From UHGV virus genome UHGV-0251015: a stretch of DNA of 30,178 nucleotides; one strand, given 5' to 3'. The translations under genes and the position numbers were made by a program. This document shows positions 892 to 22,767 of this stretch, in pieces (position 1 is the stretch's first letter; each line of letters starts with the position of its first letter). The notes beneath the pieces are model-generated. The model was given only the letters and a program-made list of their open reading frames with translations, ran no database searches and was not told the DNA's origin. The DNA comes from a virus.

Positions 892-1110
892 CTAGTTATC
901 AAAAAGTCCGTACGTTTCTTCTTCAGGAGTAAGGGGAAGAATCTCAATTCTATCTATAGATACCTTTTCAATGTACCCATGAGGTCTACTTAAAATTAAA
1001 GCTCTCTCATGCCACAGAACTCCAAGAATGTGATACCTTCCAGCATCGCCTTTTACCCTGGCTCTTCCTTTGATTCTTGGCGGCATAATGCCATATTTTT
1101 TCTTTGCCAT
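892..1110 (-). CDS. Hypothetical small basic protein (72 aa)
   Basis: ORF track; start shares its T with the stop of the upstream antirepressor gene (TAATG-type junction); no family recognised. Confidence 0.4.
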   Translation of the reverse strand: MAKKKYGIMPPRIKGRARVKGDAGRYHILGVLWHERALILSRPHGYIEKVSIDRIEILPLTPEEETYGLFDN

Positions 1111-1838
1111 TATGCAACATTACTCCCATGAACCAGGTGTTGTAGTGCTTTAACGCCTTCAGAATTGTAGCGGAATGCTTCCACCTGTTTGCTGGAATGC
1201 GCAGATTTATCCAGGAAGAACTTCCCGTACTGCTCAGTTTTGAGGTTGTTTGCGTTAGCAATGCGACCAATCTTGTTTGCCGTTACTCCAAGCTGCTCTG
1301 CGACCTCCCCTGCTGAGTAGTAATGCTCTTCTATTGCCGGAAGAGGTATTGCATTAAAACCAACGAGCGGGTTGATTATACTTGCTGCCGCTGTCTGCTT
1401 TGCCTCCGGCGCAAGATTTGGCATCAGATCGAACAGATTGGTAACAGCTTCAACCGTCATTTTCAATGTTCGCGCTTGACGATACTCAACAAGTCCACTC
1501 GACGATTTACCGCTTTTAATGTGCGCTTCTTGCATCCTTTCAAGTTGGTCTACAAGTGAGCGGCGAACAGCTTTAGATTCACGAGCAGCCACTCGAAGGG
1601 CTTGCTTAATTGACATAACAACTTTTTCAGAAGTTGTCTTGTTTGATTTTTGAACTACGAAAATTTCGTAGTGCTCACCTTCAAGTTCATCCTTAATGCG
1701 TGCAATAAAGTCGTTATTTCGAACTTCTTTTTCCCCGCACTGTCTACGAGCATGATTGACCATCTCTAACAGGTACTGGCTATCAATGGTTTTATCCGTG
1801 ACAACGGATCCGATGTTTGCTACATTCTTAAAAGTCAT
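1110..1838 (-). CDS. Antirepressor-like protein with KilA-C-type C-terminal region
   Basis: ORF track 1110..1922; I prefer the internal start MTFKN at 1838 because AAGGA sits 7 nt upstream, but 1922 (stop/start overlap with upstream gene) is possible. C-terminal YSAGEVAEQLGVTANKIGRIANANNLK resembles phage antirepressor C-terminal domains (recall). Confidence 0.5.
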   Translation of the reverse strand: MTFKNVANIGSVVTDKTIDSQYLLEMVNHARRQCGEKEVRNNDFIARIKDELEGEHYEIFVVQKSNKTTSEKVVMSIKQALRVAARESKAVRRSLVDQLERMQEAHIKSGKSSSGLVEYRQARTLKMTVEAVTNLFDLMPNLAPEAKQTAAASIINPLVGFNAIPLPAIEEHYYSAGEVAEQLGVTANKIGRIANANNLKTEQYGKFFLDKSAHSSKQVEAFRYNSEGVKALQHLVHGSNVA

Positions 1839-1921
1839 TAGGCATTCCTTATGTGGTAGTAAGGGTGTGACATAGGCCGCCAGCAGCACACTGGCGGTTT
1901 TTTTCACCGCCAGATGCGTCA

Positions 1922-2845
1922 TTAATACAGATGAACAGAAGGCGGCAATTCTTTATTCTTAAGCCTTATCCATGCGGAAAGATTTGTTGGTCCGTCTGGC
2001 TCATTGATATCAACATCTCGTGTGTGGTTGATTAAAACGTCTCTCGCCGTTCCGATAACATACGAGAACTCATGACCGTAGTCGTAGCATCTGCCGGAAT
2101 AGTTCGATTGAATTTGTTTTAGCGCCGGATACAGTTCGCGGAATAATGCCTGTGAGCGGTTGGCATAATCCCATAGCCATACAAGGCTGTTTGCTTCTTT
2201 TGCAGAAAGCTCGTTGACTTTCCTCTCTTGTTTGCCGATGAACTCTCCTTCAAGCGGAACGCGAGCAGCAAGTGACAGTGCTTCGGTAAACTGCTCCTCA
2301 CTGATTTCTTTGTACGAACATCCAAAATGGGATTTCAGTGACGACCACATGGTGATCATCGCCTTAGCCTGTTTTTCTTTTGGCAGAGACTGACCGCGAC
2401 TCATGACGAGTTGTTTAATGGCTTCCTGCTGTTCAGTGGTAATTTTACCCGGCAACGCCTTTTTAGCTTTGCGTGGATTAACCACATGGCCTTTAGTCCA
2501 GTATTCGTAGAGCACATCGTCACACTCTTCCTGATACTGGATTACCTTGTCGCGGATTTCAGGGCGGACTTTGTTTGGTTGAATACTTGAAAGCCAAGCC
2601 GCAAATTTACGAAAGGCAAGACATGTCATTAACTGTTTACCGCCAGCAGAAGGTATTTCGATTTCCGAAATACCTTTGGCAAACCTTTGTTTTAACTTAA
2701 CAAATTGAGCAGCCCAAACCAGCCCCATGCCTTCAACAACAGGCCTCATAGGAACATAAGGCTCATTGTTAATTCCAACCAAAAACAGATTTGTTCCGTG
2801 GAATGGTACATTGATAGTAGATACCGCTGTTGCTATACTTTTCAT
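1922..2845 (-). CDS. Antirepressor (Ant-like), immI-type module
   Basis: 307-aa ORF immediately downstream of an Arc-like gene; N-terminus resembles P22-type antirepressor N-terminal domain by recall; P22-like gene order. Confidence 0.55.
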   Translation of the reverse strand: MKSIATAVSTINVPFHGTNLFLVGINNEPYVPMRPVVEGMGLVWAAQFVKLKQRFAKGISEIEIPSAGGKQLMTCLAFRKFAAWLSSIQPNKVRPEIRDKVIQYQEECDDVLYEYWTKGHVVNPRKAKKALPGKITTEQQEAIKQLVMSRGQSLPKEKQAKAMITMWSSLKSHFGCSYKEISEEQFTEALSLAARVPLEGEFIGKQERKVNELSAKEANSLVWLWDYANRSQALFRELYPALKQIQSNYSGRCYDYGHEFSYVIGTARDVLINHTRDVDINEPDGPTNLSAWIRLKNKELPPSVHLY

Positions 2846-2846
2846 G

Positions 2847-2916
2847 TCAATATTTCCCGATCAGATTTGTTGATATAGAAGCCTCGCCAGTTCCCGCTGT
2901 CGGGGCTTCGTTATTT
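2847..2916 (+). ncRNA. Candidate sar-like antisense RNA spanning the arc-ant intergenic region
   Basis: Plus-strand TTGATA-17nt-TATACT promoter at about 2812-2840, ending at the ant start codon; plus-strand hairpin GAAGCCTCG/CGGGGCTTC then GTTATTTTT at about 2877-2916. Coordinates +/-2. Confidence 0.4.
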
Positions 2917-3078
2917 TTAGAGAGCATTCCGCATTTTCTCCCGGTACTTCAACCACCAAGCAAGTCCCTGAACCAACACTGAGTTTTCTGACATCCCCTC
3001 TTCCTTGGCGATGCGTTTCACCTCCTCCTTAAAACGGTACGGATACCGAAGAGTTGTCTTCACTTCATTCTTTTCCAT
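2917..3078 (-). CDS. arc: Arc-like ribbon-helix-helix repressor (53 aa)
   Basis: Below ORF-track size cutoff; my translation MEKNEVKTTLRYPYRFKEEVKRIAKEEGMSENSVLVQGLAWWLKYREKMRNAL; AAGGAG 6 nt upstream of ATG; matches the Arc beta-strand/helix pattern by recall. Confidence 0.6.
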   Translation of the reverse strand: MEKNEVKTTLRYPYRFKEEVKRIAKEEGMSENSVLVQGLAWWLKYREKMRNAL

Positions 3079-3100
3079 TGATCACTCCTTTTTACGTAAT

Positions 3101-3161
3101 GGCATTATGCCTTGAAAGCAATATGCCATCATTGAATATAAATAGCAATATGCCATCATTG
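3101..3161. promoter_or_regulatory. Divergent promoter/operator region between arc and mnt: palindrome GGCATTATGCC plus two exact 17-bp direct repeats
   Basis: GGCATTATGCC at 3101-3111; GCAATATGCCATCATTG at 3118-3134 and 3145-3161; a candidate plus-strand promoter TTGAAA-18nt-ATATAA (3112-3141) overlaps the first repeat. Confidence 0.45.
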
Positions 3162-3180
3162 TTTTTTTTGAGGTGATGTT

Positions 3181-3501
3181 ATGGCTGAAAAACAGGTTAA
3201 AGATTACGAAAAGTTTGTTGTGCGTTTCCCTGACGGGATGAGGGACGCGATTGCGGAGAGAGCCAAACGAAACGGGCGCTCTATGAACTCAGAGATTGTG
3301 CAGATACTGGAAGATGCCTTGAATGCAGAAAATACTCTTGGGGAAATAGCAGACAAAATCAACAGCGTCTCGGTTCCGCTAAATGTTGATGCGCTAGTTC
3401 AACTTCAAGCCCAAGTGATCGCCATGCAAAAAGAAATACAGGAAAAATTCAGAGAGCAGAACGAAAAGTTGAGAGAACTGCTAAACAAAAAACCCACCTG
3501 A
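3181..3501 (+). CDS. mnt: Mnt-like ribbon-helix-helix repressor with C-terminal coiled coil
   Basis: FPDGMRDAIAERAKRNGRSMNSEIVQILEDAL is an Arc/Mnt-type RHH signature (recall); GAGGTG RBS; transcribed divergently from arc. Confidence 0.65.
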   Translation: MAEKQVKDYEKFVVRFPDGMRDAIAERAKRNGRSMNSEIVQILEDALNAENTLGEIADKINSVSVPLNVDALVQLQAQVIAMQKEIQEKFREQNEKLRELLNKKPT

Positions 3502-3516
3502 CGGTGGGTTTTCATT
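3491..3516. terminator. Bidirectional intrinsic terminator between convergent mnt-like and lipoprotein genes
   Basis: Perfect hairpin AACCCACC-TGAC-GGTGGGTT (3491-3510) flanked by A-run upstream and T-rich downstream, so it can terminate both strands. Confidence 0.6.
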
Positions 3517-3535
3517 ACATATCAATTAATACCTA

Positions 3536-4198
3536 TTATCTTCTGATCGCTTTACGCCAATCCCCGGATAATCTAGATATATCCCAACACGACTGAACAA
3601 CTTCAGTAAAATACTCTCTATCCATTGGCGCGATTCCTGGCCAATCTTTCATTCGATTTACTAACGCATCTTTTGGTATGCCCTTCTTTTGATTCAAGGA
3701 GGTTTGTTCGCAAATCGCCCTTACCGCAGCATCATATTCAGCCTGAGCATAATGATTCACACTAAGAAGCACAGTGTATGCTGTTGAAAGTGAATTCATG
3801 GAAGATGAGAGTTCTTTCTTCCTCCGACACTCTTTATCAGCAAGGCATTTCTCTTCAGCTAGTTTTTTTTCCGCTCTCTTCTTGTTATTGAAGGCGTTAA
3901 TCCCAGAATCATAAGCGTTAGCCCATACATTGTAATAACACTCTCCATCCCAGCCGCATTGCGTGGTATCTGGAGCGACAAGAATCATCCCTGTTTTTTT
4001 TAGATAATCATTTTTAAGCCTATTAACAGTCCATGACTCTCCGCTTTTTGCTACATACTCTTTATCACCGAATTCGCTTTGCTGTTGCTGAGTGGTTGGT
4101 GGGGTTATCGAACACCCGTACAATAAAGAAGCAGAAAGAATCAAGAGAAAGTGTGATTTTATTTTTCTTACACATTCACCACGATTAATTAATGCCAT
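3536..4198 (-). CDS. Putative lipoprotein (220 aa), accessory/moron gene of unknown function
   Basis: Basic N-terminus, hydrophobic stretch and LLYGC lipobox-like motif; Cys-rich; visibly AT-rich; GGAG RBS; terminator directly downstream. No family recognised. Confidence 0.6.
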   Translation of the reverse strand: MALINRGECVRKIKSHFLLILSASLLYGCSITPPTTQQQQSEFGDKEYVAKSGESWTVNRLKNDYLKKTGMILVAPDTTQCGWDGECYYNVWANAYDSGINAFNNKKRAEKKLAEEKCLADKECRRKKELSSSMNSLSTAYTVLLSVNHYAQAEYDAAVRAICEQTSLNQKKGIPKDALVNRMKDWPGIAPMDREYFTEVVQSCWDISRLSGDWRKAIRR

Positions 4199-4396
4199 AC
4201 GGCGACTCCTGTCAATTTAGCATGATATACAACGGATTACCTTTGAGTTGTTCATCATATTAACGAACACAATAACTTCAGGTAAACACCTAATCCTCCC
4301 TCATCATCATGCATGAAGAAAAAACACGTATTTATCATACATGTAGCATTAATGACTGTTACCTCCAATTGGTTGGCAAAAATCATCACTGACAGG

Positions 4397-4645
4397 CTAT
4401 GATTTGAATAAGTGCTCATGCCGTGCTGATAGCTCTACTAGCAACTTCATCGCTTCTACCGCGTCTGCCGAGGTTGATTTAGGTGACGCAGCAATGGACC
4501 TGAGTGTGCTCTCTAAACTACACAGGGATAGAGAATATGCCAAATTTAGCTTTATCACGGCGGCTAAGTCTGTTTCATCATGGTTTACGAGTTTGTCTGC
4601 TTCTTCTGGGGTATACCCACTCGCAACCAATCGTGCGTGCATCAT
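4397..4645 (-). CDS. Hypothetical small protein (82 aa)
   Basis: ORF track; helical charged composition; preferred over the overlapping Ser-rich plus-strand ORF 4404..4655. Confidence 0.35.
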   Translation of the reverse strand: MMHARLVASGYTPEEADKLVNHDETDLAAVIKLNLAYSLSLCSLESTLRSIAASPKSTSADAVEAMKLLVELSARHEHLFKS

Positions 4646-4729
4646 CTCTTTGTAAGAGTGTTCAATTGCTTTTATGATAATAACCTATTGGTAATAATTC
4701 CAGGATTAAAAAACTCTTGATAGTAGTAA

Positions 4730-4969
4730 TTAATTTCCATCAAGAGCAGCAAGCAGCGAAGTGCGCAACTTTTCTTGAGTCATTTTCAACTCTCCGCTCT
4801 TTGCTTGCCTGCGAAGATCATCGACCACCATTTTGGTGAATTCTGTAGGGGTAATCTCACTCTCGATAGAGACCTCTCTCCCAAGAAGCAATGATATCCC
4901 ACCCAAAATCAGGCTAAAGGCATTACCAATATTTTTTAACGATGGAGTGTAAACGATGGAAAGTTTCAT
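4730..4969 (-). CDS. Hypothetical small protein (79 aa) with one hydrophobic segment
   Basis: ORF track; hydrophobic AFSLILGGISLLLG then charged C-terminus; first gene after the tape measure. Confidence 0.4.
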   Translation of the reverse strand: MKLSIVYTPSLKNIGNAFSLILGGISLLLGREVSIESEITPTEFTKMVVDDLRRQAKSGELKMTQEKLRTSLLAALDGN

Positions 4970-5024
4970 TTTTACCGTCCGACTTCAGTTAACGGATACA
5001 AGCACAGGAAACGTTACAAGGTGA

Positions 5025-6839
5025 CTAAGGCATTGCACTAGAAAATGCCGCGTTTGTTGACACCCGGCTAACTTGCTGATTGACACTTCTGGTAAGAGCA
5101 TCAACTGTTGTCGGGTTACTGTTAACAACAACCGTGCCAATAGTTGTACTGCTGCTACGACTGTTGTCAATTTTTGATGTTGTCTGGCTTGGTGTTGAAG
5201 CGATGCGTTGCTGCTGCTGATAGTAAGCCAGCGTCTCGTTTTCTTTTGCATTAAGAGCGGCGCGAATCTTTGGCACATATTCTCGCGTCTCTTTCGGTAA
5301 GGTGTTCCAGTATTTGGATGATGGTGAATCAAACCCGGTACTGGATATGTATTTTAACTTTTTGTCTACATTGCCCATCCCCCAGTTGTAAGCCATCAGC
5401 GCATGGTTAACATTGCCTTTATAGTGCTTTAGCAAATCCCTCATGAACCTTTCAGCAGCAGCGCGAGATTTTACCTCATCAAGACGCTCATCAATCCCAT
5501 CACCGACCTTTAACCCGTACGCTATGGCAGTATCCTTCATGAACTGATACGGACCAACAGCACCTTTCGGGCTGTAAAGTTTTTTACCACCACTCGATTC
5601 CACCTCACGAATGGCATCAAGAAGAGAATCCATGCTTACAGGCTTTACTCCGTCAGGGAGAGGGATATCTGGCTGAATGTTATTGCCATAAATCTCATCT
5701 CCCCTACGCCCAAAATCGGTGTCAAACCCCATGCTGCGCATGGTATCTCCAAGTTCACGCTTAGAGTAATCAAACGATCCTTTAGCTGCACCCTCAATGT
5801 TTTCCCTGTCATTGTAGAGGTACAAACCATATGCTATTAACCCAGCCAACCATGGAGGAAGGGCACCGCCTGTAAGTTTGCTTCCTACATATGCTGCTGC
5901 CAATAGCTTCAGAGCCTCTTCCGCGCCACCAACTGCCTTTGTGAATTGCTTCGTCATATTCCCGGCGTCATTGAAAAAGCCAATGATGTCGCCATGATGT
6001 TTCTCAATCCAGGAACCAAAAGCCTTCATCCCGTCAATAACGTCTGGAGCGAATGCCATGGCTAAATTTTGCTTTAATCGGGAAAACTCTGAATCAAGTT
6101 GACCAAGAGTGGCGGCAACCTTCTCCTGCTCTTTTACCTGCTGTGCGCTAATACGGGATTTCTTTGTTTCTGAATCGACAAGCTGCTTAAGTTCCCCTGA
6201 TTTTATTTTAGCGGCATCTGTCGGATCGAACCCTGCGGCCGCCATCACCTGCATCAGGTTTTCTTGAGAATGAGTCTTGCCATAGCGAGAAAACTCAGCA
6301 AGAGCCTTGTTTGGGTCACCGAGCTTATTGATATCTAATCCGGTACGAGCGCCAAGAACCAGCAAATTTTGGGCAGCGCCAGTAAGCCCCCCCATAACAG
6401 TTGGATCGGCAATATTTGCCAAAGCCATTCTGGCATTCCCAGAAGATGAAATGAACGAGTCACCGTTAAGACCAGCCTGGCGAAATCCCCGCTGAACACC
6501 AAACATCTTATTAACATCAGAACCGAAAAACTTGGCCTGTTGACTGGCTCTCACGATTTCGTTGGCAGTAGATGTAAAAAGTTGCTTGATTCCATACAAC
6601 CCGGCGCCAATTCCCAAAAATCCAGCGGCTGCGGTTGTCACGTTGCGGAAAGCTGAAACAGCGGTTTTACCGAACCTCTCCGTTTCCTGCCGCTGTTTTT
6701 CAAGTTCCTTTAGCCTTTCCTTCTCAGCCCTGGAAAGATCTTTGTTTAATTTACTAACTTCATCTTTTACTTTCCGTTTTCCATTCAGGAATTCATCGGC
6801 CTTAATTGTGACCTTGTAGGCCAACTCATTGATAATCAT
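5025..6839 (-). CDS. Tail tape-measure-like protein with lytic transglycosylase (SLT) domain
   Basis: N-terminal coiled coil, central Gly-rich hydrophobic segments, C-terminal LDAIREVESSGG...GAVGPYQF motif typical of SLT domains (recall); position after chaperone genes. Confidence 0.7.
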   Translation of the reverse strand: MIINELAYKVTIKADEFLNGKRKVKDEVSKLNKDLSRAEKERLKELEKQRQETERFGKTAVSAFRNVTTAAAGFLGIGAGLYGIKQLFTSTANEIVRASQQAKFFGSDVNKMFGVQRGFRQAGLNGDSFISSSGNARMALANIADPTVMGGLTGAAQNLLVLGARTGLDINKLGDPNKALAEFSRYGKTHSQENLMQVMAAAGFDPTDAAKIKSGELKQLVDSETKKSRISAQQVKEQEKVAATLGQLDSEFSRLKQNLAMAFAPDVIDGMKAFGSWIEKHHGDIIGFFNDAGNMTKQFTKAVGGAEEALKLLAAAYVGSKLTGGALPPWLAGLIAYGLYLYNDRENIEGAAKGSFDYSKRELGDTMRSMGFDTDFGRRGDEIYGNNIQPDIPLPDGVKPVSMDSLLDAIREVESSGGKKLYSPKGAVGPYQFMKDTAIAYGLKVGDGIDERLDEVKSRAAAERFMRDLLKHYKGNVNHALMAYNWGMGNVDKKLKYISSTGFDSPSSKYWNTLPKETREYVPKIRAALNAKENETLAYYQQQQRIASTPSQTTSKIDNSRSSSTTIGTVVVNSNPTTVDALTRSVNQQVSRVSTNAAFSSAMP

Positions 6840-7054: not shown

Positions 7055-7458
7055 TCTCCGGCGATCGTTAAAAAATCAAAATTGACTTTAAATACCTTAT
7101 CCATTACCTGACGAATGGTTGATACCTCTTCAAAGTCGACAGGCTTCACGGTTCGCACCTGTCTGCTGCCTTCGTGTGTAATCACAATTTGCACAGTTGA
7201 CATCAGGCGATCACGCAGTTTTCTGGCAACTTCCGGCGATGCGGCAGAAAGAACATTCAGACCAAGGGTGGCAAGGCCAGCACACCCCATGGCAATCACA
7301 TCAGCAGGAATACCAGAGAATCCCGATTCCCCCATGGAGCGGAATAAATCCTGTGCCAGTTCGTCGGCATCCCATGCCGACATCTCTGTGATAATGAACT
7401 CTTTCCCATTGTCGCGATTATCGTCTTCCACGATAAAGGGGATTTCTTTACGTGCCAT
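7051..7458 (-). CDS. Tail assembly chaperone
   Basis: Acidic 135-aa protein between tube-like gene and tape measure; carries a slippery heptamer near its 3' end. Confidence 0.55.
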   Translation of the reverse strand: MARKEIPFIVEDDNRDNGKEFIITEMSAWDADELAQDLFRSMGESGFSGIPADVIAMGCAGLATLGLNVLSAASPEVARKLRDRLMSTVQIVITHEGSRQVRTVKPVDFEEVSTIRQVMDKVFKVNFDFLTIAGE

Positions 7459-7892
7459 CAGATAGTGCTCCGTGTTACAGACTCAAAGTGAAATACTGCC
7501 GGGCGTGGTTGCAGTACGCGCCGACCCGGAGGGGTTGGAGTCCATGTATAAAGAACCCCGTTCACAAAATTCCACTTCGCGCCGAGAGCTGGAACTGTAA
7601 GCACCGCATTACACTGAAACGCTGAAATTGCAGTTCTCTCCGCTGCATACCAGTCATCAATCAGCGAGCCAGCATTGGATGTGGGCATCAGGTTGATGGT
7701 GAACTCTGTCGGGTTAAAGATAAAACCAGCATGGTATTTACCGTCCGCTGACATCATGTCTTCTTTGTTCTGTAACGCACCAGTTTCAAACATGTTATCA
7801 GCTGCGTAGTCGTCAACATCAAAACCGCCAGGGTAGTAAGCGGGTACAACGATTCGCAGCTTACTGTTTGCCGAGGTAATATCGATAGGCAT
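7458..7892 (-). CDS. Putative tail tube protein
   Basis: 144-aa ORF directly downstream of the sheath-like gene with start/stop overlap; assignment by synteny. Confidence 0.45.
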   Translation of the reverse strand: MPIDITSANSKLRIVVPAYYPGGFDVDDYAADNMFETGALQNKEDMMSADGKYHAGFIFNPTEFTINLMPTSNAGSLIDDWYAAERTAISAFQCNAVLTVPALGAKWNFVNGVLYTWTPTPPGRRVLQPRPAVFHFESVTRSTI

Positions 7893-7903
7893 GATTTATT
7901 CCC

Positions 7904-9394
7904 TTATAAAATCGCGGTTGAGGACATTGTGATGGACTGAATAAGTTGCCCATCGACATAATAGAAAATGACACCTTTCAGGTCGCGCTCAATGCGTGCA
8001 GAGCCTGACTGTGTCGGGATGTACAGGAACCAGCCCTGTGAATACAGCGTCGATGAGATATCTTTTCCAACTGTGTTATTCACAATTCTGGTTTGCGCAT
8101 TATCAAGTTTCACGCCACGCTGAATAGCCCCGAAATTGAGAGCCTGTTCAGCAACATCAATAACAGCAGCAGAAACTGCGCCGTATCCTGTCTCATTGAA
8201 CGGGTAAGACTGGTTATTGGTGAACAGGTTAGCAAAAGCACTAACCAGATTGGCATTAATCCATACCTGATTAATAAAACTGTCCAGCCATACAAACTTG
8301 CCAGTAATGGCACCATCAGATGCGTACTGCGCCATTGTTTTGTTCAGGCTGTATGAGCCGTAGAAGTTGTAACCGTTTGATTTCAGTGCCTGAGCGGTCG
8401 CCAGATCGCTTACGTTGGGTGCTAACCCTGAAAATCCACGGAACTTGAACGAGATACGCCCATTGGTGCGTGCAAAATCCACGGATGCAGCATATGCCAG
8501 TGCTGTAACGCTATACAGGTATGTTCCGTACACCGGAAAAATGTTCTCGTAGCCATTTGCCACAACCACTTTCTGCACAAAGCAATTTGCATTATTGGCT
8601 ACCGTTCCTGCTGAAGTGGTATCGTGAACAACATATCCAAACCGGTTTTTACTGCTGCTTGCCCATGCGCACAATTCTGTTTTCTGGTCATCGGTCAGTT
8701 CGACCAGCGAGTTAAACAGGATCCAGTTCTGGTTGACGTTGATGATGTTGTTCATCGTGTCTGTCAGCGTTACCGCATCATAACCCGGTGATACAATCGC
8801 TGCGGAATCCTGCGTAAGTAACAACCCGGTAGCCAGAGCGCCAGCAGAGGCATAAGACACTTCACTCTCTGCGCCAGTAGTGGCAGAGCGAATGATGAAT
8901 CGGTTAGCTATTGGCAACCATTCAACCACCACCTTGCTTGCACCAATTCCAACCTGCAACTTGGACGCAATGTCGCTAAAACTTGTGGCTGTGGACAAAT
9001 CAATTGATGTGCTGGTAGTCGACTCACCGTCAATGGAAAGGGTGATTGTTCCTGCTGGAATCGCTTTCAGTGTTGCCAGGGTAACACCTTTCAGGTTGCC
9101 GGACAGAAGATACCCAGCCACTGGTGAAGTAACAATACGATACATCAGCAGTTCACCAGGAATAACGGATGAGTTTTCGTATCCGTTAAAATACTGTTGT
9201 GCTGCGAGGAATTCTTTCGATTCACTCCCCATCAAAGCTGATACATCAGATGAGGAGTAATAAGATTGTACCGCGCCAACCGGGATAAGCTCGTTATCGG
9301 TCAACATCAGGCCGTTAGCATCAACCGCAGAACCGGCAGGCGTAACGACATTGGGCGTGATATTAAAATCTACAGATAAAGGGATTGTGCTCAT
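7904..9394 (-). CDS. Putative tail sheath-like / major tail protein
   Basis: 496-aa Ser/Thr/Gly-rich structural-type protein preceding tube and chaperone genes; assignment by synteny and composition. Confidence 0.5.
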   Translation of the reverse strand: MSTIPLSVDFNITPNVVTPAGSAVDANGLMLTDNELIPVGAVQSYYSSSDVSALMGSESKEFLAAQQYFNGYENSSVIPGELLMYRIVTSPVAGYLLSGNLKGVTLATLKAIPAGTITLSIDGESTTSTSIDLSTATSFSDIASKLQVGIGASKVVVEWLPIANRFIIRSATTGAESEVSYASAGALATGLLLTQDSAAIVSPGYDAVTLTDTMNNIINVNQNWILFNSLVELTDDQKTELCAWASSSKNRFGYVVHDTTSAGTVANNANCFVQKVVVANGYENIFPVYGTYLYSVTALAYAASVDFARTNGRISFKFRGFSGLAPNVSDLATAQALKSNGYNFYGSYSLNKTMAQYASDGAITGKFVWLDSFINQVWINANLVSAFANLFTNNQSYPFNETGYGAVSAAVIDVAEQALNFGAIQRGVKLDNAQTRIVNNTVGKDISSTLYSQGWFLYIPTQSGSARIERDLKGVIFYYVDGQLIQSITMSSTAIL

Positions 9395-9450: not shown

Positions 9451-9933
9451 ATGTGTAAATTCAATGATTTATTTGCGTATTGCAAACGAACCGGTGTTTT
9501 GACATACAAGAAAAAATGCGGAATAAAAATGCCAGGGCAAATTGCTGGGTCTGTCAACAAAAATAACTACATAAATCTTGGCATTGAAAAGAAAAGATAC
9601 TATGCCCACAGGATAATATGGGAAATGCATAATGGAACCATTCCTGATGGCTATCAGGTAGACCACATAAATGGCATAAGGTCTGATAATCGAATCGAGA
9701 ATCTCAGAATAGTGAAAAACAGCGAGAACTCGAAGAACCAGAAGCGAAAATCTACCAACAAATCTGGTATGACTGGCGTTTCATGGGATACGCAAACCCA
9801 GAGATGGAGAGCGCATATAACTGTTAATGGAAAGATGATATCTCTTGGAAGATATATACATAAGCTTGATGCATTAACAGCCAGAAAAAATGCCGAGATT
9901 AAATACAATTTTCACGAAAATCACGGGCGTTAA
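9451..9933 (+). CDS. HNH homing endonuclease with AP2-type DNA-binding domain
   Basis: YYAHRIIWEMHNG...DHINGIRSDNRIENLRIV...NSEN (HNH motif) then GVSWDTQTQRWRAHITVNGKMISLGRY (AP2-like); opposite strand to all flanking late genes; AT-rich. Confidence 0.8.
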   Translation: MCKFNDLFAYCKRTGVLTYKKKCGIKMPGQIAGSVNKNNYINLGIEKKRYYAHRIIWEMHNGTIPDGYQVDHINGIRSDNRIENLRIVKNSENSKNQKRKSTNKSGMTGVSWDTQTQRWRAHITVNGKMISLGRYIHKLDALTARKNAEIKYNFHENHGR

Positions 9934-20595: not shown

Positions 20596-21033
20596 TCATC
20601 GAAGGCATTGCGTCCTGATGTATTCCTGCAAGTAGTTAACCTGCGCGGTTATCCTGTCGATTCCACTTCGGAGACGGTAATAATTGAGTTCAGCATCTGC
20701 TGTAAGTCTTGGGCTTTCTCCATCGCCCATGCTGCTGGCTCCGGTCGTTGGCTTTGCACAGGTGGCGGCGACTTGCAGGCGCTTACGACCAGCAGAAACA
20801 TCAGCACGGAGGCTTTCGATAGTCGCGTTAGCATCAGCAAGCTCCTTTGTGTATCTGGCGTCGAGTTCTGCTACATCACGTTGACGCTTCTGCATATCAG
20901 CGATGATGGATGTGGCTTTATCGCGCTGGTCTTTGTAGGCGATGGCGTTATCACGGTAATGATTAACAGCCCATGACAGGCAGACGATGATGCAGATAAC
21001 CAGAGCGGAGATAATCGCGGTGACTCTGCTCAT
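20596..21033 (-). CDS. Rz: Rz-type i-spanin
   Basis: [31 protein letters not shown] matches lambda Rz N-terminus by recall; ATGA overlap with endolysin stop; C-terminal half divergent. Confidence 0.8.
20649..20840 (-). CDS. Rz1: Rz1-type o-spanin lipoprotein embedded in the +1 frame of Rz
   Basis: Signal-like FLLVVSAC lipobox followed by Pro-rich [13 protein letters not shown]; nested inside Rz as in lambda. Confidence 0.65.
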
Positions 21034-21533
21034 TGCTGCCCCCACAAACAGACTTCACGCTCAATATCACGACGGGTCATCAGCCCTTTCCATTGCTTAC
21101 CGCCAGCGTATGTCCAGCGACGTAGCTGGTCACATGCGCCTTTGATATCACCCTGGTTTATTTTGCGAAGAAGCGTCGATGTTCTGAAATTGCCAGCCCC
21201 CACGTTGTAGACGAACGAGTAAAGAGCGCCGCGCGTTGTTTCCGGTATATCGACTTTGATGTACGGGTTAATTTGTCTGGCGACCGTGGCAAGGTCTTTA
21301 TTCAGGAGAGCTTTGCATTCTGCTTCGGTATACGTTTTACCGAGCATGATGTCTTTTCCTGTATGCCCGTAACATACAGTCCATACACCAACTATGTCTT
21401 TGTAAGGATTATGTCTCACACCTTCCAGACCATCGTTACCACTTGGGCCAGTGATTAACACAGATGCTATAGCAATAGCCCCGCCACTTATCGCCGCTAT
21501 TACGCTATTTCGTAGTGCCGGTGACATTGCCAT
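21030..21533 (-). CDS. SAR endolysin (lysozyme with N-terminal signal-anchor-release domain)
   Basis: Gly/Ala-rich weakly hydrophobic N-terminus [17 protein letters not shown] then lysozyme-like body; resembles phage 21-type R by recall. Confidence 0.85.
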
Positions 21534-22143: not shown

Positions 22144-22767
22144 CTAACGTGTGACCGCATTCAAAATGTTGTCTGCGATTGACTCTTCTTTGTGGCATTG
22201 CACCACCAGAGCGTCATACAGTGGCTTAACAGTGCGTGACCAGGTGGGTTGGGTAAGGTTTGGGATTAGCATCGTTACAGCGCGATAAGCAGCGCTTGCT
22301 GGCATTCTTGAATAGCCGGCGCCTTTGCATCTTCCGCACTCTTTCTCAACAACTCTCCCCCACAGCTCTGTTTTTGCTATATCAACCGCACGACCTGTAC
22401 CGTGGCAATCTCTGCATCTTGCGCCCGGCGTCGCGGCACTACGGCAATAATCCGCATAAGCGAATGTTGCGAGCACTTGCAGTACCTTTGCCTTAGTATT
22501 TCCTTCGAGCTTTGCCACACCACGGTATTTCCCCGATACCTTGTGTGCAAATTGCATCAGATAGTTGATAGCCTTTTGTTTGTCGTTCTGGCTGAGTTCG
22601 TGCTTACCACAGAATGCAGCCATGCCGAATCCGGCTTGTGATTGCGCCATCCCCATAGCAGCCATCACATCAGTACCGGAAAGAGAGTCAGAAGCCGTAG
22701 CCCGTGGTGAGTCGCTCATCATCGGGCTTTTTGGCGAATGAAATTTAGCTACGCTTTCGAGTCTCAT
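22144..22767 (-). CDS. Q: Late gene antiterminator Q (lambda-type)
   Basis: 207-aa protein beginning MRLESVAKFHSPKSPMMSDSPRATASD, matching lambda Q essentially throughout by recall. Confidence 0.95.
   Translation of the reverse strand: MRLESVAKFHSPKSPMMSDSPRATASDSLSGTDVMAAMGMAQSQAGFGMAAFCGKHELSQNDKQKAINYLMQFAHKVSGKYRGVAKLEGNTKAKVLQVLATFAYADYCRSAATPGARCRDCHGTGRAVDIAKTELWGRVVEKECGRCKGAGYSRMPASAAYRAVTMLIPNLTQPTWSRTVKPLYDALVVQCHKEESIADNILNAVTR

What the first reader, a model, noticed from the sequence alone, without database searches (positions are those of the whole stretch)
3536..4969. AT-rich accessory cassette (lipoprotein plus two small proteins) next to the immI-like module
Three minus-strand genes of no recognisable family sit between the tape measure and the mnt-like gene: a 79-aa protein with one hydrophobic segment, an 82-aa helical protein and a 220-aa Cys-rich putative lipoprotein. 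A strong bidirectional terminator follows the cassette, which is visibly more AT-rich than the flanking structural genes. The position corresponds to where P22 carries sieA beside mnt, so a superinfection-exclusion or host-modifying role is plausible. This is the strongest candidate in the window for an uncharacterised phage-encoded system.
Basis: partly seen in the sequence, partly recalled or inferred. Interest (0 to 1): 0.65.

Follow-up and report, generated by a model that had tools for sequence, protein, structure and literature searches.

The report
Prophage accessory outer-membrane lipoprotein cassette
A 1.45-kb AT-rich insert in the tail-gene region of an E. coli prophage carries three unrelated add-on genes; the main one encodes an unclassified outer-membrane lipoprotein that probably blocks entry of other phages, which is plausible and testable but not very surprising.

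Summary
Three minus-strand ORFs (79, 82 and 220 aa) lie between the SLT tape-measure gene and an Arc/Mnt-like gene, in the most AT-rich 1.4 kb of the window. They form a 1,454-bp insert (3517-4970) that is absent from an otherwise 99%-identical prophage.

They are not a system. Each gene occurs elsewhere without the others. The 82-aa ORF is a start-codon-mutated copy of a 92-aa family. The terminator belongs to the backbone.

The 220-aa protein is the substantive part:
- It founds a small family of about 47 clusters at 50% identity. Most carry a recognisable lipobox (41 of 50 sequences checked), none has Asp at +2, and most have six further Cys, five of them in at least 90% of the aligned members.
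- AF2 predicts an all-alpha fold (pLDDT 82). No member matches Pfam, PADLOC, NCBIfam or the PDB.
- Members sit in accessory slots of temperate enterobacterial myophages: after the tape measure, after the spike, before the fibre, beside an O-antigen-type acyltransferase, and after a CI-type repressor. One sits on a Mob plasmid-like contig.

Best reading (confidence about 0.5): an exported moron lipoprotein giving envelope-level superinfection exclusion. This is functionally like Llp/Cor/Ltp but not homologous to them. Function is untested. Interest is moderate.

The parts
3517..4970 (.). 1,454-bp accessory insert relative to the empty site in E. coli FDAARGOS_1288 (L002). It is bounded by a 7-nt repeat, TTTCATT on the plus strand (AATGAAA on the minus strand), at 3510-3516 and 4964-4970.
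   Evidence: Alignment with L002. The string window 3470-3516 joined to 4971-4988 occurs exactly in L002. Repeat coordinates. GC 0.405.
3536..4198 (-). Gene for the 220-aa pre-lipoprotein: a mature protein of about 191 aa, all-alpha, with six further Cys that are invariant among its close homologs (C81, C87, C118, C124, C163, C204).
   Evidence: ORF. Homologs and invariant Cys. AF2 pLDDT 82. PHROG 26209. Two synonymous and no non-synonymous differences against L004.
4112..4198 (-). Signal peptide with lipobox (residues 1-29: MALINRGECVRKIKSHFLLILSASLLYG|C). Cys29 codon at 4112-4114, Ser at +2.
4199..4396 (-). AT-rich spacer (GC 0.374) upstream of the lipoprotein gene, with SD AGGAG at 4206-4210. 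It holds a weak sigma-70-like site at 4362-4334, which is no better than chance. No match in complete E. coli genomes or in the phage collection.
4397..4645 (-). 82-aa helical ORF: a copy of a conserved 92-aa family whose ancestral ATG (4673-4675) is ATA here. The usual convergent DUF2513 partner is missing.
4730..4969 (-). Gene for a 79-aa small protein with one N-proximal hydrophobic segment (residues 14-30) and a conserved charged C-terminal part. It is a probable single-pass membrane protein and an independent module.
3489..3512 (.). Backbone terminator hairpin (AAAACCCACC-loop-GGTGGGTTTT) overlapping the 3' end of the mnt-like gene. It is not part of the insert.
   Evidence: Not listed by the consensus scan.
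5025..6839 (-). Flanking context: 604-aa tape-measure protein with a C-proximal SLT lytic transglycosylase domain (residues 402-498).
3181..3501 (+). Flanking context: 106-aa Arc/Mnt-like ribbon-helix-helix repressor of the immI-like module. The module continues with arc (2917-3078) and two antirepressors (1922-2845 and 1110-1922).

Best explanation
The region is a mosaic of three independently mobile accessory genes (morons) in a cargo hotspot of a temperate, Q-regulated E. coli myovirus with an E217-like tail.

The 220-aa gene is the functionally important one. [quoted passage not shown] There it displays a roughly 190-residue all-alpha domain, probably disulfide-stapled, in the periplasm.

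Most likely mechanism: the lipoprotein blocks an envelope step of phage infection. It either occludes or distorts an outer-membrane receptor from the periplasmic side, as T5 Llp does with FhuA, or it interferes with the tail-tip or tape-measure conduit as that crosses the periplasm. Either way the lysogen is protected from superinfection. Where the gene is expressed late, progeny would also be protected from wasting themselves on dying cells and debris.

p79 is probably a small inner-membrane protein and p82 a decaying copy of a 92-aa helical protein. Neither is required for the lipoprotein.

Shown here: the anatomy, the export and lipidation signals, the accessory status, and the family and its contexts. 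Inferred: the localisation and the exclusion function.
For: 1. Lipoprotein nature. Lipobox plus Cys was recognised in 41 of 50 sequences checked (the four close relatives plus the 46 other profile hits). Most misses are short fragments, and at least one (P0028, FSAGC) only falls outside the search pattern. The +2 residue is S, A or T in 35 of 41 and never Asp. Five further Cys are in at least 90% of the 38 aligned members, and a sixth pairing partner (C81) is invariant among close homologs. That suits an oxidising periplasm.

2. Accessory status. The gene is absent from prophages with 99% identical TMP, hub, plug and spike genes (L001, L002). It is present unchanged (100% aa) with different BaseplateJ, wedge and fibre variants (L004, L007). 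It has a low GC content.

3. A real gene under constraint. It is conserved from 23 to 57% identity across E. coli, Salmonella, Yersinia, Klebsiella and metagenomes. Against L004 there are 2 synonymous and 0 non-synonymous changes.

4. Contexts typical of exclusion or conversion genes:
- directly after TMP-SLT (L010, L011, L015);
- between the spike-like bp230 and the sheath initiator (L020-L022, L024);
- between wedge and tail fibre in temperate Yersinia phages and a Klebsiella prophage (L012, L030);
- beside mnt-arc-ant modules (window, L015, L018, L028, L029);
- next to an AT3-SGNH acyltransferase (L023);
- downstream of, and co-oriented with, a CI/LexA-type repressor and an N-like gene (L025);
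- next to MobC and relaxase genes on a plasmid-like contig (L027)
.

5. Autonomy. In L018 it is oriented against the structural genes. Terminator-like hairpins follow it in L018 and L025.

6. Experimental precedents:
- Lipoprotein genes inside the tail cluster of temperate coliphages exclude phages that use OmpA or LamB (PMC11893012).
- T5 Llp is an outer-membrane inner-leaflet lipoprotein that binds FhuA, and its gene lies next to the receptor-binding protein gene.
- HK022 cor is a moron downstream of gpJ.
- P22 SieA blocks the ejection-protein conduit.
Against: There is no experimental or expression evidence for this family.

Promoter-like sites upstream are no more frequent than in shuffled sequence. 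In several loci the gene overlaps or closely follows late structural genes (L011, L020-L024), so expression in the lysogen is not shown.

The mature domain is about three times larger than Llp or Cor and shares nothing with them beyond the signal peptide.

The fold matches no known exclusion protein.

The target is unknown. The same lipoprotein travels with different fibres, which argues weakly against a receptor-matched blocker. A homolog occurs in a Yersinia phage whose TMP candidate has no detectable SLT domain, which argues weakly against an SLT-specific inhibitor.
Confidence: 0.5

Rival explanations
1. Host-fitness or virulence moron. The lipoprotein alters the cell envelope for the host's benefit (serum or complement resistance, stress tolerance, adhesion), as lambda Bor or plasmid TraT do, and has no role in phage exclusion.
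For: It is an exported outer-membrane lipoprotein that is accessory, AT-rich and sometimes plasmid-borne (L027), or sits beside an O-antigen-type acyltransferase (L023). Several hosts are pathogenic Enterobacterales. The Bor and TraT comparison is from my own knowledge.
Against: None of 38 members hit any Pfam model, which would include the Bor and TraT families. The family is overwhelmingly embedded in phage tail or immunity regions, often tightly coupled to tail genes. That pattern is typical of phage-versus-phage functions. O-antigen modification genes are themselves exclusion devices.
Confidence: 0.2
2. One reading: the three genes form one cooperating system, for example a two-layer exclusion device in which p79 acts in the inner membrane and the lipoprotein in the periplasm, like T4 Imm plus Spackle.
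For: The three ORFs are co-oriented with no predicted terminator between them. They travel together in at least 5 independent assemblies (L005-L009). p79 has a transmembrane-like segment.
Against: Each gene occurs without the others in related phages, and L004 replaces the middle gene. The middle gene has lost its ancestral start codon and its usual DUF2513 partner. There are no PADLOC hits.
Confidence: 0.07
3. A phage-internal role: a lysis or egress accessory, or a tail-assembly or structural factor tied to the tape measure or baseplate.
For: The gene is embedded within late tail operons, start/stop-overlapped with the spike-apex gene in L020 and L021, and directly after TMP in L010, L011 and L015.
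Against: A lipoprotein signal recognised across most of the family sends the protein out of the cytoplasm where tails assemble. The phage already has lysozyme and Rz spanin genes about 16 kb away. Near-identical tail modules lack the gene. Homologs also sit by a repressor and on a plasmid-like contig.
Confidence: 0.06

Closest known systems
T5 Llp and HK022/phi80 Cor (FhuA-inactivating exclusion lipoproteins)
   Same: All have a lipoprotein signal peptide with an outer-membrane-type +2 residue. All are encoded as add-on genes beside tail or receptor-binding genes: T5 llp lies next to oad, and HK022 cor lies downstream of gpJ and is annotated as a moron. The presumed site of action is the periplasmic face of the outer membrane (abstract).
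   Different: Mature Llp and Cor are about 60 aa; this protein is about 190 aa, all-alpha, with six further Cys. Profile comparison aligns only the 23-25 signal-peptide columns. PHROGs places it in the unknown family 26209, not in a Cor family. The target is unknown.
mEpimmI Lpp lipoproteins (Lpp021, Lpp010) of temperate coliphages
   Same: These are lipoprotein genes inside the structural-gene cluster of temperate E. coli phages, and they have been shown experimentally to exclude phages that use OmpA or LamB (PMC11893012). This is the nearest ecological and functional precedent.
   Different: The host phages are siphoviruses with a J-type fibre. tblastn of the window protein against the phage collection found only three Yersinia phages, so no sequence relationship was seen; I did not check that the mEp genomes are in that collection.
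TP-J34 Ltp (Streptococcus thermophilus prophage exclusion lipoprotein)
   Same: It is a prophage lipoprotein with a helical extracytoplasmic domain that blocks DNA injection, with the tape-measure protein identified as its target (PMC3952083 and the Bebeacua 2013 paper it cites). Here the gene often sits directly after the tape-measure gene.
   Different: Ltp is from a Gram-positive host, is anchored to the cytoplasmic membrane, and is built of HTH-like repeats. No Pfam hit was found in any of 38 members. The Foldseek hit to 4eqq is at noise level (E = 2.5, TM 0.14-0.28).
T4 Spackle (periplasmic inhibitor of the gp5 tail lysozyme)
   Same: It is a small periplasmic protein that stops superinfection by inhibiting the peptidoglycan-degrading domain of the incoming tail (PMC7677548 abstract). 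Most tails in this family carry an SLT domain in the tape measure next to the gene.
P22 SieA
   Same: It occupies the same genomic neighbourhood, beside mnt of an immI module and, from my own knowledge of the P22 map, downstream of the DNA-delivery gene 16. It is prophage-expressed and blocks the DNA-delivery conduit.
   Different: SieA is a polytopic inner-membrane protein. This protein has only a cleavable lipoprotein signal. There is no sequence similarity.

Membership tests
Bacterial lipoproteins (Lgt/LspA/Lnt pathway), outer-membrane sorted | N-terminal signal peptide with a positive n-region, a hydrophobic h-region and a lipobox [LVI][ASTVI][GAS]C | tested here: met
   The window protein reads R6, R11, K12, K14 / FLLILSASLL / LYG-C29. 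Tyr at position -2 is atypical but invariant in the close homologs. A lipobox was recognised in 41 of 50 sequences checked, mostly the canonical L-S/A/T-G-C.
Bacterial lipoproteins (Lgt/LspA/Lnt pathway), outer-membrane sorted | No Asp at +2 (the Lol avoidance signal; the rule is established knowledge) | tested here: met
   +2 residues across the family: S 16, A 16, T 3, V 2, M 2, I 1, E 1, D 0.
Bacterial lipoproteins (Lgt/LspA/Lnt pathway), outer-membrane sorted | Actual acylation and outer-membrane localisation | not testable with these tools
   Needs globomycin or palmitate labelling and membrane fractionation.
Llp/Cor exclusion lipoproteins | Homology of the mature domain | tested here: not met
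   hhalign of the family profile against T5 Llp and HK022 Cor aligns only the signal peptide, 25 and 23 columns. PHROGs gives only families of unknown function.
Llp/Cor exclusion lipoproteins | Add-on gene placed beside tail or receptor-binding genes of a phage | tested here: met
   Positions seen: after TMP, after the spike, and between wedge and fibre. Compare T5 and HK022.
Llp/Cor exclusion lipoproteins | Inactivates an outer-membrane receptor and excludes phages that use it | not testable with these tools
   Requires plaque and adsorption assays.
Ltp-type exclusion lipoproteins | Ltp repeat domain (a Pfam Ltp family exists, from my own knowledge) | tested here: not met
   No Pfam hit at E <= 0.01 in any of 38 members other than scattered single chance hits. 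The Foldseek match to Ltp 4eqq is non-significant.
T4 Spackle | Sequence or fold similarity to Spackle | tested here: not met
T4 Spackle | Inhibition of a tail-borne peptidoglycan hydrolase | not testable with these tools
   Needs an in-vitro assay with the TMP SLT domain (residues about 390-510), or multimer modelling.
Moron (accessory transcription unit in a phage genome) | Present or absent between otherwise near-identical phages, with sharp boundaries | tested here: met
   The empty site in L002 reproduces window 3470-3516 joined to 4971-4988 exactly. Flanking genes are 99-100% identical.
Moron (accessory transcription unit in a phage genome) | Deviant base composition | tested here: met
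   GC 0.405 against 0.471, in the lowest 1.2% of windows.
Moron (accessory transcription unit in a phage genome) | Own promoter and terminator | tested here: inconclusive
   Promoter-like hits do not exceed shuffles. The terminator in the window is a backbone feature. Terminator-like hairpins do follow the gene in L018 and L025.
o-spanin (Rz1-type lysis lipoprotein) | Small lipoprotein encoded in the lysis cassette, within or next to an i-spanin gene | tested here: not met
   The phage has lysozyme (21030-21533) and Rz (20596-21045) about 16 kb away. This protein is about 190 aa when mature and sits in the tail region.
Multi-gene anti-phage defence system | Obligate co-occurrence of the component genes, or a match to known system models | tested here: not met
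   The genes occur separately. PADLOC gives nothing significant for the three proteins or for the 38 family members.

The most novel reading that the evidence does not exclude
The lipoprotein founds a new class of Gram-negative injection blockers tethered to the outer membrane and acting in the periplasm. These would neutralise the penetrating tail tip of incoming contractile-tailed temperate phages, meaning the tape-measure or SLT conduit or the spike, rather than masking a receptor. That would make it a functional counterpart of Ltp, Spackle and SieA with an unrelated all-alpha, probably disulfide-stapled fold. In this prophage it might act alongside the small membrane protein p79 as a two-layer, Imm/Sp-like barrier.
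Probability: 0.15. Interest if true: 0.65.

Novelty: new variant of a known kind. Interest (0 to 1): 0.4.

Why it matters
Prophage-encoded envelope proteins that shut the door on other phages shape phage host range, prophage competition and the outcome of phage therapy. Only a few families are understood mechanistically: Llp, Cor, Ltp, Spackle and SieA.

This work defines a compact, previously unannotated family. It has about 47 clusters at 50% identity, a confident predicted fold, and conserved Cys, Asp, Arg and Trp positions. It recurs in accessory slots of temperate myophages of E. coli, Salmonella, Yersinia and Klebsiella.

It is a clean single-gene candidate for an exclusion assay, and escape mutants would name the target. 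If that target is the tape-measure or spike apparatus rather than a receptor, it would be the first such lipoprotein in Gram-negative bacteria.

If it only masks a receptor, or does something unrelated to phages, it is one more moron: useful for annotation but not surprising.

Tried and rejected
- Weak hits that are chance-level and were not used: Pfam Intimin_C (E = 0.014, below the cutoff) and PADLOC JetC (E = 0.0098, 12 bits).
- The PDB sequence-profile search found 0 hits.
- The genome-contig scan with A4 found no relative. Alignments A3, A8 and A9 were too diverse for the locus finder. The taxonomic census therefore rests on about 20 loci.
- The spanin idea was rejected because the phage has its own Rz in the lysis cassette.
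- A structural-protein role was rejected because of the family-wide export signal and the near-identical phages that lack the gene.
- Promoter scans were uninformative.
- Rfam found nothing in the window.
- Which tail gene co-varies with the lipoprotein could not be resolved. Physical linkage to TMP confounds the comparison. The fibre-swap observation and the Yersinia tail without a detectable SLT domain each weaken one sub-hypothesis only slightly.
Full report
**1. What is in the window**

The window is a temperate enterobacterial myovirus on the minus strand.

- Early and lysis genes: Q antiterminator (22144-22767), lysozyme (21030-21533), Rz (20596-21045), and replication O and primase-helicase genes.
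- Tail module of the Pseudomonas E217 type: sheath 7904-9394, tube 7458-7892, chaperones, and a 604-aa tape-measure protein (TMP, 5025-6839) with an SLT lytic transglycosylase domain at residues 402-498.
- A P22-style immI module splits TMP from the baseplate genes. It comprises an Arc/Mnt-like repressor (3181-3501, plus strand), arc (2917-3078), a P22-type Ant (1922-2845) and a second antirepressor (1110-1922).
- The window is 100% identical over the cassette to contigs of E. coli GCA_000806175.1 and to several SRA assemblies.

**2. The observation**

The three ORFs exist as described.

- p79 has one hydrophobic stretch.
- p82 is predicted to be helical.
- The 220-aa protein has a Shine-Dalgarno sequence, a positively charged n-region, a hydrophobic h-region and the lipobox LLYG|C29.
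- The cassette is the most AT-rich 1.4 kb of the window: GC 0.407 against 0.471, in the lowest 1.2% of windows.
- A G+C-rich hairpin with a T-run follows the lipoprotein gene, although the consensus scan did not list it.

**3. An insert with sharp edges**

E. coli FDAARGOS_1288 (L002) has the same mnt-like gene (100%) and TMP (99%), separated by only 68 nt. Window 3470-3516 joined to 4971-4988 is found exactly in L002. The insert is therefore 3517-4970 (1,454 bp).

It is flanked by the 7-nt repeat TTTCATT at 3510-3516 and 4964-4970. On the minus strand the right-hand copy contains the ATG of p79. This points to gain or loss by illegitimate recombination at microhomology.

The terminator hairpin is present in L002, and the mnt stop codon lies in its loop. 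It is therefore a backbone feature.

Other relatives carry different cargo at this site:
- L001 has four hypothetical genes, including p79.
- L003 has a DUF2513 gene plus the 92-aa gene.
- L016 and L017 carry other small genes.

Megablast found no match to 3518-4371 in 5,426 complete E. coli genomes or in 50,697 phage records.

**4. Three modules, not one system**

- The lipoprotein gene follows TMP directly, without p79 or p82, in L010 (50% identity) and L011 (46%). In Salmonella L015 (55%) it comes with the 92-aa gene only.
- p79 homologs occur without the lipoprotein in L001, L013 and L017.
- The 82-aa ORF belongs to a 92-aa family in E. coli, Salmonella and Edwardsiella (82-98% identity). 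That family is paired convergently with a 138-aa DUF2513 gene in L003, L013, L015 and L016.
- In the window that partner is missing and the family's ATG is ATA. This explains why gene callers skipped the ORF.
- L004 keeps p79 and the lipoprotein gene but replaces the middle gene with an unrelated 100-aa ORF.

**5. The lipoprotein family**

The word-indexed search of 5.8 billion proteins found only four clusters. An exhaustive profile search of 1.84 billion representatives found 47, nearly all 200-240 aa.

- A lipoprotein signal was recognised in 41 of 50 sequences checked, usually L-S/A/T-G-C. The +2 residue is never Asp. By the established +2 rule this predicts outer-membrane sorting.
- Across 38 aligned members, R160 and C163 are invariant. 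C29, C87, C118, C124, C204, Y141, D156, G188, R194 and W205 are at least 90% conserved. This suggests three disulfides and a conserved polar patch.
- AF2 gives a confident all-alpha model: pLDDT 82 overall and about 77-96 over the mature part, with long helices at 85-120, 122-147 and 149-171.
- No member hits Pfam or PADLOC, and the window protein has no NCBIfam hit. The only named relative is the uncharacterised PHROG 26209.
- Similarity to T5 Llp and HK022 Cor is confined to the signal peptide.

**6. Where family members sit**

| Position | Loci |
|---|---|
| After TMP-SLT | window, L004-L009, L010, L011, L015 |
| Between the spike-like bp230 gene and the sheath initiator, co-oriented; start/stop-overlapped in L020 and L021 | L020-L022, L024 |
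| Same slot, with a neighbouring mnt-arc-ant module | L028, L029 |
| Same slot, opposite orientation, near an Arc gene | L018 |
| Between baseplate wedge and tail fibre, in a different tail lineage | temperate Yersinia phages vB_YenM_29.18 and relatives (L012), Klebsiella prophage (L030) |
| Downstream of the fibres, next to an AT3-SGNH acyltransferase | L023 |
| Downstream of, and co-oriented with, a CI/LexA-type repressor and a weak N-like gene, and followed by a terminator-like hairpin | L025 |
| Next to MobC/NikA and relaxase genes on a short plasmid-like contig | L027 |

The identical protein accompanies different BaseplateJ, wedge and fibre variants (L004, L007). The same TMP exists without it (L001, L002).

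The gene is therefore dispensable for the virion, exported from the cytoplasm, and repeatedly placed where temperate phages keep conversion or exclusion genes.

**7. Mechanism**

Shown here: the export and lipidation signals, the accessory status, purifying conservation, and the contexts.

Inferred: residence in the inner leaflet of the outer membrane, with a helical domain in the periplasm that blocks an envelope step of infection.

Two sub-mechanisms remain open.

1. Receptor occlusion from the periplasmic side, as with Llp and FhuA or the mEpimmI Lpp proteins. The fibre-adjacent position in the Yersinia and Klebsiella lineage favours this. The same lipoprotein travelling with different fibres weakens it slightly.
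2. Interference with the penetrating conduit. Precedents are Ltp against TMP, Spackle against the gp5 lysozyme and SieA against the ejection proteins. The frequent position right after TMP-SLT or the spike favours this. The Yersinia homolog, next to a tail with no detectable SLT domain, weakens it slightly.

Late-operon embedding in several loci fits a role in protecting progeny from adsorbing to dying cells. This is the idea in the title of bioRxiv 2024.03.05.583538. Expression in the lysogen is not shown, because the promoter scans are uninformative.

**8. Verdict**

The accessory and exclusion-type reading is partly supported. The 'three-gene system' reading is not supported.

The lipoprotein is a new protein family that probably does a known kind of job. 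It is a good, cheap experimental target, with moderate interest (0.4). The most novel reading, a Gram-negative lipoprotein that targets the tape-measure or spike apparatus, is not excluded but has a probability of only about 0.15.

Noticed in passing
window 9451-9933 (+): A 160-aa HNH_3 plus AP2-domain endonuclease gene sits in the opposite orientation between the sheath gene and the tail-terminator gene. It is present in L005, L006 and L008 but absent in L004 and L007, so it looks like a mobile homing-endonuclease insertion in the tail operon. L017 has another HNH_3 gene between the chaperone and TMP.
   Followed up: partly
window 4673-4675; L003 4001-4326: The 92-aa family's start codon ATG is ATA in the window and in all identical loci, which leaves an 82-aa ORF starting at a conserved internal Met-Met. 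The homology block shared with L003 begins about 50 nt upstream of the ORF and ends about 25 nt after its stop, so the exchanged unit is gene-sized.
   Followed up: yes
L003 3624-4326; L013, L015 and L016 6001-6681: A recurrent convergent pair with overlapping 3' ends: the 92-aa helical protein and a 138-aa DUF2513 protein. It sits in the same cargo hotspots next to Arc/Mnt genes in E. coli and Salmonella (L013 is a sequencing-run assembly with no organism named). It may be a two-gene module of unknown function.
   Followed up: partly
window 3510-3516 and 4964-4970: A 7-nt direct repeat (TTTCATT on the plus strand) lies at both edges of the 1,454-bp insert. The empty site in L002 keeps one copy, and with it the Shine-Dalgarno region and ATG of p79 fused directly to the terminator hairpin. 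This hints that L002 arose by deletion.
   Followed up: yes
window 3489-3512: The terminator hairpin encodes the last residues (KKPT) and the stop codon of the mnt-like gene on the plus strand. The consensus terminator scan missed it even though it folds stably.
   Followed up: yes
window 1110-3501: The immI-like module carries two different antirepressor genes in tandem: a P22 Ant type (307 aa) and a PHROG 1726 anti-repressor (270 aa). The module sits inside the tail operon between TMP and the baseplate hub. In L013 the equivalent module sits instead between the spike and the sheath initiator. In L007 the mnt-like gene is replaced by an HTH_3 plus Peptidase_S24 repressor.
   Followed up: partly
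L027 1-1822: A 37%-identical lipoprotein homolog, cut by the contig end, lies next to MobC/NikA-like and relaxase genes on a 2.8-kb metagenomic contig. This is the only non-phage context seen.
   Followed up: partly
L023 5103-8621: A lipoprotein homolog lies downstream of a 595-aa AT3-SGNH acyltransferase (O-antigen acetylase type) beyond the tail-fibre genes, so two surface-directed accessory genes sit side by side.
   Followed up: no
L028 and L029 967-1329: A 120-aa predicted membrane protein with a zinc-ribbon motif lies between the lipoprotein gene and the mnt-like gene. It is another small membrane-protein neighbour, unrelated to p79.
   Followed up: no
L030 (NZ_CP079635.1): A 1.04-Mb Klebsiella pneumoniae record filed as a 'plasmid' has only 5 annotated features and contains a prophage of the Yersinia vB_YenM lineage. 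It is probably a chromosome fragment or a mis-filed replicon.
   Followed up: no
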